From Candidatus Heimdallarchaeota archaeon (GTDB lineage: Archaea > Asgardarchaeota > Heimdallarchaeia > JABLTI01), in assembly GCA_019056785.1 (NCBI GenBank), contig DXJV01000084.1, positions 96,001 to 160,000 on the forward strand: a stretch of 64,000 bases of DNA, written 5' to 3'. Each line of letters opens with the position of its first letter. The stretch's first letter is position 1. Positions 642 to 9,708 of this stretch are shown here, in pieces. The position numbers and the translations under genes are program-made. The notes under the pieces were generated by a model, which saw nothing but the letters and a program-made list of their open reading frames with translations, was not told where the DNA came from and searched no databases.

Positions 642-1457
642 ATGAAACAGGCATTTAAGGTGGCAAAAAATTTGAGTGATAATATTGATAATTTATTAAG
701 TGATATTTATTCTTCTGAAAGCCAGAGCCAAGGAGTAAAGGAATTAGCCAATTTAATTAATAGTCTCTCCCAATTACTTTTGAAAGCAATAAGTCAATTA
801 GAAAATCGTGTGTATAAATTGGAACAACAAATTGGAAGAGGTGGCGGAGCCATTTCTATGCCAAGAGCCCCAGAGCCGACAGCAACGCCAACACCAGCAC
901 CGGCACCAAAGCCAAAAGTTGCTTCTCCGTTTGGTGCGCCCGCTGCACCCCAAAGAACACCCCCACCCCCACCAGCAAGAGCTTCTCGAGCAGCAACACC
1001 AATGCCTGCGCCTAAAAAAAGCGATGGTCCAGCATCTGTTGCGGAAGCCGCTTCGATGTTGGGTGTAACTCTAAAGAAAGCACCAACCTCATCAGGACCT
1101 TCAGGAGGAAGTTCTGGCCCCTCATTTTTAACGACAACAGTTTCACCCAGTGCTCCAGGAAAGGCGGCAACACTAACGCCAGCAGCAAGCCCCACACCTC
1201 AAACAACAGCTGATGCTGCAGCACCCACAAGTGGTGGCGGCATAGCAGGGCCAACCGGAGGCTTTCGTGGCGAACTTGCAGAGAAACTCGCAAAAAGAAG
1301 AAAGAAGGTCCAAGAACAGCTCGAAAGTGATTTTGAAGGAGCAGATCTTGCAGCAAGTCCGGCTCCTCAAGAAGCTGCAGAAGAATCCACAAGTAGTGAA
1401 TTAAAAGTTGATTTAGAGGAAGAATTACGAAACGCATTCTCAAAACTAAAAGGTTAA
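642..1457 (+). CDS. Pro-rich protein with N-terminal coiled coil and WH2/EVH2-like motifs (Ena/VASP-like architecture)
   Basis: Heptad region aa ~33-64; TPPPPP; AASMLGVTLKKA; GGFRGELAEKLAKRRKK; acidic segment; terminal amphipathic helix. Confidence 0.6.
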   Translation: MKQAFKVAKNLSDNIDNLLSDIYSSESQSQGVKELANLINSLSQLLLKAISQLENRVYKLEQQIGRGGGAISMPRAPEPTATPTPAPAPKPKVASPFGAPAAPQRTPPPPPARASRAATPMPAPKKSDGPASVAEAASMLGVTLKKAPTSSGPSGGSSGPSFLTTTVSPSAPGKAATLTPAASPTPQTTADAAAPTSGGGIAGPTGGFRGELAEKLAKRRKKVQEQLESDFEGADLAASPAPQEAAEESTSSELKVDLEEELRNAFSKLKG

Positions 1458-1463
1458 AAACGA

Positions 1464-2150
1464 ATGGCCAACAGAAAAGTAGTCTGTTTAATTAGTGATG
1501 GATTAGATTCACCCGTCGCTACTTTTTTGCTGGAAAAAAAAGGTTTAGAGGTTATAGGGCTTAATTTTAATAATTTCCCTCTGGTAAAACCAGCTAAAAA
1601 GAGTGAAAAACGGCTTATCCCAAAAGGGCAGATAAAAAACATTGCTCAAAAATTAGTGCAGGCTTTTACCCACCAACGATCCTTTGAGTTATATATAGTT
1701 CCAAATGGAAATGATTTAAAACGAATCGTCGAACAAAGCACTGACCCGAAAATCATCTGTGTTTTATGTAAAAGATTGATGTTAAGGAAAGCAGAACAAT
1801 TTGCTTTGAAACTAAATGCTAAATTTGTTGCAACGGGGGAAATATTAGGCGAACAAGCAAGCCAAACAATCAACAATTTATGGGTGAATGAAAGTGTACT
1901 CACCTCAACAATCTTATTACGACCGAACATTGGACTAAATAAAGAGGAAATTATTGACATTGCTCGTTCAATTGGCACATATCAACATTCAGAACTAGCA
2001 GCAAAGTTCACTTGTGGGGCAGTGCCGGAAAAACCAAGCACACAAGCAAAACTGAAGGAAGTGATCGCCGTGGAGAAAAAAATTGGGCTGGAAAAGGCTA
2101 TCCAGGAAAGCTTTGAGCGCACTCAAAGAGAGATTTTCTATAAAAACTAA
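1464..2150 (+). CDS. thiI: ThiI-family tRNA sulfurtransferase, catalytic PP-loop domain only (no THUMP)
   Basis: LISDGLDSPVA PP-loop; CVLCKR; TGEILGEQASQT; LRPNIGLNKEEI; distal Cys (FTCG). Confidence 0.8.
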   Translation: MANRKVVCLISDGLDSPVATFLLEKKGLEVIGLNFNNFPLVKPAKKSEKRLIPKGQIKNIAQKLVQAFTHQRSFELYIVPNGNDLKRIVEQSTDPKIICVLCKRLMLRKAEQFALKLNAKFVATGEILGEQASQTINNLWVNESVLTSTILLRPNIGLNKEEIIDIARSIGTYQHSELAAKFTCGAVPEKPSTQAKLKEVIAVEKKIGLEKAIQESFERTQREIFYKN

Positions 2151-2374: not shown

Positions 2375-2788
2375 TTGAAGGGCATTATAACTGCTTCAAA
2401 ACTTGTCTCATCTCCAAAAGAGATAGCTTTTCCGGACCTAGTTATATCTGACATTTCAGAATTAAGTGGCGACAGCGGTAAAATACTCATTGTTTATGCA
2501 TCGAACGTTAAAGCCATCTATTTCTTCTCTGTGGAATCAGAAGTCATTAAAATCAGCATTAAAATCTATCCATTAACATCTCGCATAGTCGCAAAAATTA
2601 TGGCGAAAATAAACGAGTTCGCAAACAAAATAACATATTCAACTGGCCTATGCCTTGTAGACGATGTTTGTGTTTGGGAAGGCTTTCTGGAAACTCGACA
2701 TCTTACCTGCTCTTTAGAGGAAGTTAAAAACTTGCTCAAAGAGATTGAAGAAGTACAAGATGTAGCCATTGAAGAAGTCCCCCATTAA
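2375..2788 (+). CDS. hypothetical protein, ACT-like C-terminal domain with Cys pair
   Basis: YSTGLCLVDDVCVWEGFLE; similar to 8166..8615. Confidence 0.6.
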   Translation: MKGIITASKLVSSPKEIAFPDLVISDISELSGDSGKILIVYASNVKAIYFFSVESEVIKISIKIYPLTSRIVAKIMAKINEFANKITYSTGLCLVDDVCVWEGFLETRHLTCSLEEVKNLLKEIEEVQDVAIEEVPH

Positions 2789-8165: not shown

Positions 8166-8615
8166 TCAGCAAACTTCCAATACAGTTATTGTAATGCCTG
8201 AGACGCCTTCGATTGAAGAAAGTTCTTTCTTTAAATCTTCGATGTTGATTTTTTTGAATTCTGTGGCTTCGATATAACCATCGAAAACACATTTTTCTTC
8301 AACAAAACAAATACCTGTGGAATAAAGCGCTTTTAATCCGAGCTTCAAAAAGAGATTCCCAATTTGCCTTAAGAAATCACTTGATAATTGCCCGATATCG
8401 ACTGCTAATTTGTATACTTTATTGGATGAAGTTGGAATTATTCGAATGATTTTATTATTTGTTGTCAAAATAACAACAGCATACTCTTCCACAACGGCCT
8501 GTAATGCTTCTTGAAAAGAACTCGGAAGCTCGACTGATTTTTCATGGTCAAGTTTTAATACTTCAGCAATAGTTATTTGAGGGATGTTAGTCTTTTTTTC
8601 TGCCATATTCTCCAC
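8166..8615 (-). CDS. hypothetical protein, ACT-like domain with Cys pair
   Basis: YSTGICFVEEKCVFDGYIE...LSSIEGVSGI; similar to 2375..2788. Confidence 0.6.
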   Translation of the reverse strand: MENMAEKKTNIPQITIAEVLKLDHEKSVELPSSFQEALQAVVEEYAVVILTTNNKIIRIIPTSSNKVYKLAVDIGQLSSDFLRQIGNLFLKLGLKALYSTGICFVEEKCVFDGYIEATEFKKINIEDLKKELSSIEGVSGITITVLEVC

Positions 8616-8724: not shown

Positions 8725-9708
8725 TCACACGGTAGTCACGGAATTTGCCAAGATCTTTGGTGGCCCAGCCACTTTATAAGGATGAAAAGACCAACCTTTT
8801 GTCTGCAATTCTTTTGCAACCTGCCCAGCAAACTCAACCGTGGTTGCTACAGTAATAAGATTGCCCCCACCGATGAGATAATAAGCCATAATTCCTCTCT
8901 CTCGCATAACTTCTAACTGATGACAAAGACGCATCATTTCACGTTTTCGGACGAAAAGATTTACTCCCTCGAGTAACTCATGAGCATTTCTGATGTTTTC
9001 TTCAGCAAGAGTGAGCATTGTAATAAAGTCTCTTTTTCGTGCAGCAGAGACAATTTTAGACACCCAATCAGGGATTCTTTTAACTCTCTTCGGAAAGTTT
9101 GGATTGGTTACAATGCCCGCATGAATCTCATCAGCTGATAAGCGAGAAGGGTAATGGAAAGGAACAGAAAATAACTTTATGGCTTCCAGCTCCTCAGCAG
9201 AAGCTATTTGTTCAACTGTTAAAGGGCGAGAGTGAACTTTGGTCAAGGTTAAGCCCCCAAACAAACTCCTCCCGGCACTTTCAGAACCTTTCATAGCGTG
9301 AAGTAAGAGCTTTTCTTTTGGGTAATGTAAATCGAGAGCAGCATTTAAGCCAGTATAAAGTGCTGCTAAGCCAGAATCGGAGCTGCCACTGAAAATGTCA
9401 ATGTTTTTTGACTGAATGATAAGATCGCCAGTGTGCTGACTTTTTGCGACAAACTTCTTAATGGAATCGACAATTTGCCTCCCTCGAAGGCCCGTGATTT
9501 CGGTTCCGTTTAAAAAGAATTTTACAGTCGTACCCTTTGATGTGGGTGTGAAATGGATTGTGGTCTCAGTTCTGGTAGTTTCATTGGGCGTTGTCACAGC
9601 CAGGCCCATTGTATCATATAAAGGTGTTCGATCAGAATTAATGCCTCCGAGAAATACAATTGGGATTGTAGGATAAGCAACAGTTGTTACTACACTGGTT
9701 TTCGTCAC
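8725..9708 (-). CDS. mevalonate 3-kinase (Thermoplasma Ta1305 type; GHMP/DMD family)
   Basis: AYPTIPIVFLGG..RTPL, SGSSDSG, SESAGRSLFGGLT, LIGGGN lacking the decarboxylase Asp. Confidence 0.8.
   Translation of the reverse strand: MTKTSVVTTVAYPTIPIVFLGGINSDRTPLYDTMGLAVTTPNETTRTETTIHFTPTSKGTTVKFFLNGTEITGLRGRQIVDSIKKFVAKSQHTGDLIIQSKNIDIFSGSSDSGLAALYTGLNAALDLHYPKEKLLLHAMKGSESAGRSLFGGLTLTKVHSRPLTVEQIASAEELEAIKLFSVPFHYPSRLSADEIHAGIVTNPNFPKRVKRIPDWVSKIVSAARKRDFITMLTLAEENIRNAHELLEGVNLFVRKREMMRLCHQLEVMRERGIMAYYLIGGGNLITVATTVEFAGQVAKELQTKGWSFHPYKVAGPPKILANSVTTV

What the first reader, a model, noticed from the sequence alone, without database searches (positions are those of the whole stretch)
642..1457. 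Ena/VASP-like actin-regulator architecture in an archaeal protein
Seen: N-terminal coiled coil, Pro-rich tract with PPPPP (aa ~74-125), SVAEAASMLGVTLKKA (aa 132-147), Gly/Ser linker, GGFRGELAEKLAKRRKK (aa 206-222), acidic stretch and terminal helix LKVDLEEELRNAFSKLKG. Known (from memory): the VASP EVH2 region has polyproline (profilin binding), the WH2-like GAB (LAAAIAGAKLRKV), the FAB (GGLMEEMNAMLARRRK) and a C-terminal tetramerisation helix, in this same order. Asgard archaea encode actin and profilin. Inference: a candidate primordial actin elongation/bundling factor of VASP or WASP-VCA type, with a coiled coil in place of EVH1.
Basis: partly seen in the sequence, partly recalled or inferred. 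Interest (0 to 1): 0.85.

Follow-up and report, generated by a model that had tools for sequence, protein, structure and literature searches.

The report
Asgard-wide candidate actin-assembly scaffold
This gene is the long form of an undescribed protein found in most Asgard archaea, the closest microbial relatives of eukaryotes. It is laid out like eukaryotic actin-assembly factors, so it is a testable candidate for their missing actin nucleator, but it is not an Ena/VASP protein and actin binding is unproven.

Summary
The ORF and all named motifs are real. Motifs are 78-96% conserved across 37 Gerdarchaeales orthologues; linkers are 17-49%. The true start is probably nt 672. The protein belongs to an unannotated family detected in 280 of 400 Asgard genomes: N-terminal coiled coil, proline-rich arm, basic end helix. 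This scan found the family before on other DNA.

Two things are added here. Heimdallarchaeia long forms carry 1-3 helix+LKK[A/V] repeats (exact WH2-type LKKV in Kariarchaeaceae-like genomes; only a divergent LKKA copy here). Both C-terminal helices score as copies of the family end helix, so the claimed 'tetramerisation helix' is unsupported.

It is not Ena/VASP: there is no EVH1 and no Pfam or PDB match to WH2 or VASP. The coil resembles trimeric coils and, weakly, CCDC53/BRK1 of the WASH and WAVE complexes. The genome encodes actin, profilin and gelsolin.

Against actin binding: the short, repeat-less L. ossiferum orthologue (identified by position and neighbour mass) is expressed but not enriched in a published Lokiactin co-IP.

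Best reading: an oligomeric scaffold that binds actin through its repeats (about 0.4). Main rival: an adaptor for a non-actin partner (about 0.38).

The parts
642..1457 (+). Gene for the 271-aa frame (261 aa from the probable TTG start at 672); long Gerdarchaeales form of a pan-Asgard family
672..827 (+). N-terminal short helix plus coiled coil (aa 11-62); family-defining domain, probable oligomeriser; one heptad shorter than in sister families
861..1016 (+). Proline-rich disordered arm (aa 74-125), with conserved islands at aa 88-97 and the five prolines at aa 107-111 (nt 960-974)
1029..1085 (+). Short helix followed by LKKA (aa 130-148); divergent positional equivalent of the helix+LKK[A/V] repeats of sister families; WH2/GAB-like by eye only
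1113..1133 (+).
1257..1307 (+). Basic amphipathic helix (aa 206-222); copy 1 of the pan-Asgard end helix; FAB- or C-helix-like
   Evidence: (2nd of 976,068 positions)
1320..1391 (+). Acidic stretch (aa 227-250) without tryptophan
1392..1454 (+). Terminal helix (aa 251-271); copy 2 of the end helix, not shown to be a tetramerisation coil
   Evidence: (10th of 976,068 positions)
1464..2150 (+). ThiI-family gene; constant neighbour in Gerdarchaeales and one sister family, probably functionally unrelated

Best explanation
An oligomeric scaffold that works like a WH2-type actin-assembly factor. Shown by sequence and model: an N-terminal coil, a disordered proline-rich arm, and short conserved helices. 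Inferred: the coil forms a parallel oligomer, probably a trimer, which clusters three arms. The helix+LKK[A/V] units (one here, two or three in sister families) bind actin monomers as WH2/GAB motifs do. The basic helices hold a filament or its end, as the VASP FAB or WASP C helix does. The prolines may recruit profilin-actin weakly. The net effect would be nucleation, elongation or bundling of actin filaments without Arp2/3. No step of binding is shown.
For: Motifs are conserved islands in variable linkers. In sister families the LKK unit occurs as 2-3 tandem copies whose number varies between close relatives, each a short amphipathic helix directly before LKKV, LKSV, LTKV or LKKA. Leucine, two basic residues, then V/T is the published WH2 signature and is used by Asgard gelsolins (PMC9433394; PMC3034019). 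The order proline-rich, WH2-like, basic helix is that of VASP EVH2 and WASP VCA. An oligomer plus a WH2 plus a FAB is enough for elongation (PMC3034019). The family is as widespread as actin: 280/400 genomes plus Hodarchaeales against 76/83 for actin in the class. The genome has actin, profilin and gelsolin. Family profiles match mostly trimeric coils in the PDB.
Against: No WH2 or VASP hit in Pfam or the PDB for whole proteins, motif segments or motif profiles. A matrix built from non-Gerdarchaeales LKK repeats does not score this protein's motif (best -3.3 bits), and 15 unrelated places in the genome score 11-19 bits, so the pattern is common. Only 2 of 37 orthologues end the motif in V or T. 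The L. ossiferum orthologue is expressed but absent from the co-IP rows with log2 ratio above -1.06, while five gelsolins and a profilin were enriched. No gene neighbourhood link to actin in any lineage examined.
Confidence: 0.41

Rival explanations
1. A generic docking adaptor. The coil oligomerises and the end helix docks on a conserved partner other than actin, for example a small-GTPase/roadblock module or an MIT domain of the ESCRT system. The LKK repeats are a second lineage-specific docking motif that looks WH2-like by chance.
For: The short Lokiarchaeal orthologue is not enriched with Lokiactin. The coil plus end helix also form the tail of Arf/Rag-like GTPases in Lokiarchaeia (L063, L175). 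The Arf that did co-purify with Lokiactin lacks this tail. No WH2 profile match. The terminal helix of long forms has spacing like an ESCRT MIM1 motif (from memory, not tested).
Against: It does not explain tandem, copy-variable helix+LKKV units placed after proline-rich arms. The co-IP tested only the repeat-less short form, and its authors note bias against membrane-associated proteins; it also missed one profilin.
Confidence: 0.38
2. A homologue by descent of WAVE/WASH complex subunits: a homotrimeric ancestor in which a BRK1/CCDC53-type coil, a proline-rich arm and a V-C-A-like tail sit in one chain.
For: Heimdallarchaeum orthologues pass the Pfam cut-off for CCDC53 (25.5 and 26.9 bits against 24.6, gap-free over the coil), and CCDC53 is the most frequent family in that alignment (6 of 30). 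The CCDC53 model's only hit in two complete genomes is this coil. The Lokiarchaeal profile finds BRICK1 at E 0.035. BRK1 and CCDC53 are free homotrimers (10.64898/2026.09.18.752629 and PMC8047104).
Against: This protein itself has no CCDC53 hit. Genome-level E-values are only 0.02-0.04 and 5 of 14 control genomes ring too. Unrelated trimeric coils outrank BRICK1, which is not in the top 60 for the all-family profile. The acidic stretch has no tryptophan. No WASP C helix is retrieved from the PDB.
Confidence: 0.14
3. A true Ena/VASP family member with a C-terminal tetramerisation coil.
For: Motif order matches EVH2.
Against: No EVH1. The last helix is about 20 aa and scores as a second copy of the end helix. 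No VASP tetramer hit in Pfam or the PDB.
Confidence: 0.04
4. Low-complexity coincidence: the motifs are not under selection.
For: The protein is about half disordered and Pro/Ala/Ser-rich.
Against: Motifs are 78-96% conserved against 17-49% for linkers; the layout recurs across the phylum.
Confidence: 0.02

Closest known systems
Ena/VASP proteins (EVH1, proline-rich region, EVH2 = GAB + FAB + tetramerisation coil; PMC3034019)
   Same: Order of proline-rich region, WH2-like motif and basic helix; presumed multivalency
   Different: No EVH1; oligomerising coil is N-terminal; last helix is a repeat of the basic helix; no detectable sequence match
WAVE and WASH nucleation-promoting factors with BRK1 and CCDC53 (PMC8047104)
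   Same: N-terminal trimer-type coil (weak CCDC53 and BRICK1 matches in orthologues), proline-rich arm, V-C-acidic order
   Different: Single chain; no tryptophan in the acidic stretch; an extra terminal helix; other complex subunits and Arp2/3 not looked for; coil match not above generic coils
Tandem-WH2 nucleators (Spire, Cobl, VopL/VopF) and the WH2 of CAP/Srv2 (own knowledge)
   Same: Repeated helix+LKKV units on a disordered chain in sister-family orthologues; short helix-to-LKKV spacing recalls CAP/Srv2 (from memory)
   Different: Spacing does not fit Pfam PF02205; this protein has one divergent copy
Asgard two-domain gelsolins with a WH2-like linker motif (PMC9433394)
   Same: Shows that the four-residue LKKT-type motif binds actin in Asgard archaea
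   Different: There the motif sits between folded gelsolin domains; here it is on a disordered scaffold

Membership tests
Ena/VASP | N-terminal EVH1 domain | tested here: not met
   N-terminus is helical; no Pfam hit
Ena/VASP | Central proline-rich region | tested here: met
   Run of five or more prolines in 30 of 37 orthologues
Ena/VASP | GAB (WH2-like) motif | tested here: inconclusive
   Conserved helix+LKKA, LKKV in relatives; no profile match
Ena/VASP | FAB basic helix after the GAB | tested here: inconclusive
   Conserved basic helix present; likeness to VASP rests on a sequence recalled from memory; no database hit
Ena/VASP | C-terminal tetramerisation coiled coil | tested here: not met
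   Last helix scores as a second end-helix copy; no VASP tetramer match
Ena/VASP | Processive filament elongation | not testable with these tools
   Needs TIRF assay
WAVE/WASH-type nucleation-promoting factor | BRK1/CCDC53/WHD-type trimeric coiled coil | tested here: inconclusive
   Passes CCDC53 cut-off in two orthologues, not in this protein; controls ring too
WAVE/WASH-type nucleation-promoting factor | Acidic tail with conserved tryptophan | tested here: not met
   No tryptophan in the last 70 aa of any of 37 orthologues
WAVE/WASH-type nucleation-promoting factor | Arp2/3 complex as target | not tested
   One divergent actin-related protein is present (L015); ARPC subunits were not searched
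WH2-motif proteins | Amphipathic helix followed by L-basic-basic-V/T | tested here: inconclusive
   Exact in Kariarchaeaceae-like and some Heimdallarchaeaceae repeats; ends in A in 35 of 37 Gerdarchaeales orthologues; PF02205 not matched
WH2-motif proteins | Binds the actin subdomain 1/3 cleft | not testable with these tools
   Needs binding assay or structure

The most novel reading that the evidence does not exclude
The family is the missing Asgard actin nucleation or elongation factor and the single-chain ancestor of the WAVE/WASH and Ena/VASP modules: a homotrimeric BRK1/CCDC53-like coil with a proline arm and a basic helix, to which WH2-type repeats were added in Heimdallarchaeia, the class from which eukaryotes are thought to branch.
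Probability: 0.14. Interest if true: 0.93.

Novelty: new variant of a known kind. Interest (0 to 1): 0.63.

Why it matters
Asgard archaea crawl with actin-filled protrusions, yet only profilins and gelsolins are known regulators (PMC13716822), and filament nucleation machineries 'have yet to be discovered' there (PMC9433394). This near-universal, mostly single-copy family is a concrete candidate. Its natural series of zero (Loki, Thor, Odin), one (this protein), two to three repeat forms makes the question testable with a few peptides and one actin assay. A positive result would move the origin of WH2-based actin assembly before eukaryotes. A negative result would still leave a phylum-wide undescribed adaptor whose partner is unknown.

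Tried and rejected

No WH2, VASP or WASP hit in: Pfam scans, PDB sequence searches with whole and motif profiles, a PF02205 genome search, Foldseek (low-confidence model) and the ESM Atlas (nearest clusters were unnamed Asgard proteins at 0.84-0.85). The search of 1.84 billion representatives returned only 9 close relatives.

PF00235 suggested there is no profilin. I rejected that after an Asgard profilin profile found one at E 7e-16. ThiI synteny holds only in Gerdarchaeales and one sister family. I tested whether the Arf in the Lokiactin co-IP is a family fusion; it is not. The last row of alignment A5 was mis-cut, so A7 replaced it. Two papers on VASP/WH2 structure were not held, so eukaryotic motif sequences stay as recalled from memory.

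Full report
Observation. A homologue search gave 41 proteins, those with names labelled mostly Heimdallarchaeota or Asgard hypothetical proteins. The gene is in 10 of 11 other genomes of the family, which includes the JABLTI01 assembly; from my own knowledge that is Gerdarchaeales. Orthologues begin at aa 11, so the start is probably TTG 672. Conservation is island-like: coil 0.84, aa 88-97 0.83, proline run 0.78, LKK helix 0.84, aa 158-164 0.96, basic helix 0.81, end helix 0.87, linkers and acidic stretch 0.17-0.49. AlphaFold2 models five helices on a disordered chain (pTM 0.24). The 'coincidence' exit is closed.

The family. Weak genome hits led to orthologues in Heimdallarchaeaceae and Lokiarchaeia. 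Profile-profile comparison links them: Gerdarchaeales to Heimdallarchaeaceae 97.7% over the whole length, to Lokiarchaeia 88%, to the pooled short forms 96.9%, and Heimdallarchaeaceae to Lokiarchaeia 95.6%. A profile of the N-terminal domain matches 280 of 400 Asgard genomes, mostly once or twice; the weakest of these hits may be other coils. In most of the loci I read, from about ten further families, the layout is coil, proline-rich arm and a basic end helix with an invariant EL core. Hodarchaeales, missed by that profile, have two paralogues. Lineage names for coded families are my inference from genome sizes and hit labels. Gene neighbours differ by lineage and none is cytoskeletal.

What the long forms add. 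In Heimdallarchaeia other than Hodarchaeales the arm carries units of a short amphipathic helix followed by LKK[A/V] or a close variant. There is one in Gerdarchaeales, two or three in Heimdallarchaeaceae, and three in Kariarchaeaceae-like genomes, where exact LKKV is common. Copy number differs between near-identical proteins (P0132 has two, L101 three). The published WH2 signature is leucine, two basic residues, then V or T, and Asgard gelsolins use it on actin (PMC9433394). However, no profile recognises these units as WH2. This protein's copy is the most divergent: it aligns by position, a matrix from the other families does not score it, and it ends in A in 35 of 37 orthologues.

The two last helices. 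A matrix built only from end helices of non-Heimdallarchaeia members ranks aa 204-220 second and aa 254-270 tenth among 976,068 positions in this genome. Oligomerisation more likely lies in the N-terminal coil, whose profiles retrieve mostly trimeric coils. Two Heimdallarchaeum orthologues pass the Pfam cut-off for CCDC53 and the Lokiarchaeal profile finds BRICK1 at E 0.035. Both are homotrimeric precursors of the WASH and WAVE complexes. The signal is marginal: controls ring as well, generic trimers score higher, and this protein has no such hit.

Partners. The genome encodes a conserved actin (96-98% identical across the family), a divergent actin-related protein, a two-domain gelsolin and a profilin. 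Asgard profilins bind polyproline weakly or not at all (PMC8410842).

An experimental check. A Lokiactin co-IP from L. ossiferum is published (10.1101/2025.11.30.690169; PMC13716822). The orthologue there is a 152-aa short form without LKK repeats. Its upstream neighbour has a computed mass of 24.03 kDa, matching GNAMCCOK_02218 at 24.01 kDa, so the orthologue is probably GNAMCCOK_02219. That tag is in the proteome (mean log2 intensity 18.5) but not among the stored co-IP rows, which run from log2 ratio +10 to -1.06; 841 further rows are cut. It was thus not enriched, whereas five gelsolins and one profilin were. This weighs against stable actin binding by the end helix alone. It does not test the repeats, the tag assignment is inferred, and the assay missed another profilin.

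Mechanism. Most likely (0.41) an oligomeric scaffold whose LKK units bind actin monomers and whose basic helices hold filaments, giving nucleation, elongation or bundling by multivalency. An oligomer with a WH2 and a FAB is sufficient for this in VASP chimeras (PMC3034019). Anatomy and conservation are shown; oligomer state and every binding step are inferred. Nearly as likely (0.38) is a docking adaptor for a non-actin partner, supported by the co-IP and by the same coil and end helix forming tails of Arf/Rag-like GTPases. Descent from a WAVE/WASH-type ancestor gets 0.14 and true Ena/VASP membership 0.04.

Novelty. Six literature searches found no paper describing the family, and recent work names only profilins and gelsolins as Asgard actin regulators. 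Earlier scan notes report the same family on other DNA; they are not independent support. It fails the Ena/VASP membership test but may work like one. Interest is 0.63 because it makes a stated open question directly testable while the function remains unproven.

Noticed in passing
L063:1384-2817 (-) and L175:1378-2607 (-): Lokiarchaeia Arf/Rag-like GTPases that end in a coil plus the family end helix.
   Followed up: partly
L062:1-1983: In genome G105 the C-terminus of what looks like an actin-related gene is followed by small coiled-coil genes, one starting with a seven-proline run.
   Followed up: no
L159:1095-1938: Tandem pair of diverged family members in one genome (G126), which has further coil matches.
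   Followed up: partly
L202:1581-2201 (-), L191:1450-2124 (+): Second Hodarchaeales paralogue with up to ten consecutive prolines and an extra conserved helix before the end helix.
   Followed up: partly
L015:1279-2430 (G000 C4): Divergent actin-related protein (383 aa) in the window's own genome.
   Followed up: no
G000 C31 near 100337 (+): Profilin missed by Pfam PF00235 but found with an Asgard profile; it appears to have few aromatic residues at its termini, so polyproline binding may be weak.
   Followed up: partly
window 2375-2788 (+) and 8166-8615 (-): Two small unannotated proteins with similar C-terminal halves, apparently paralogues; the first is conserved next to ThiI across the family.
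   Followed up: no
window 8725-9708 (-): Mevalonate-3-kinase / diphosphomevalonate decarboxylase-like gene.
   Followed up: no
Supplementary Table 2 of 10.1101/2025.11.30.690169: Several proteins not discussed in the passages I read are enriched as much as Lokiactin itself, e.g. GNAMCCOK_04250 (20.6 kDa, log2 5.1) and GNAMCCOK_04085 (56.4 kDa, log2 4.5).
   Followed up: no
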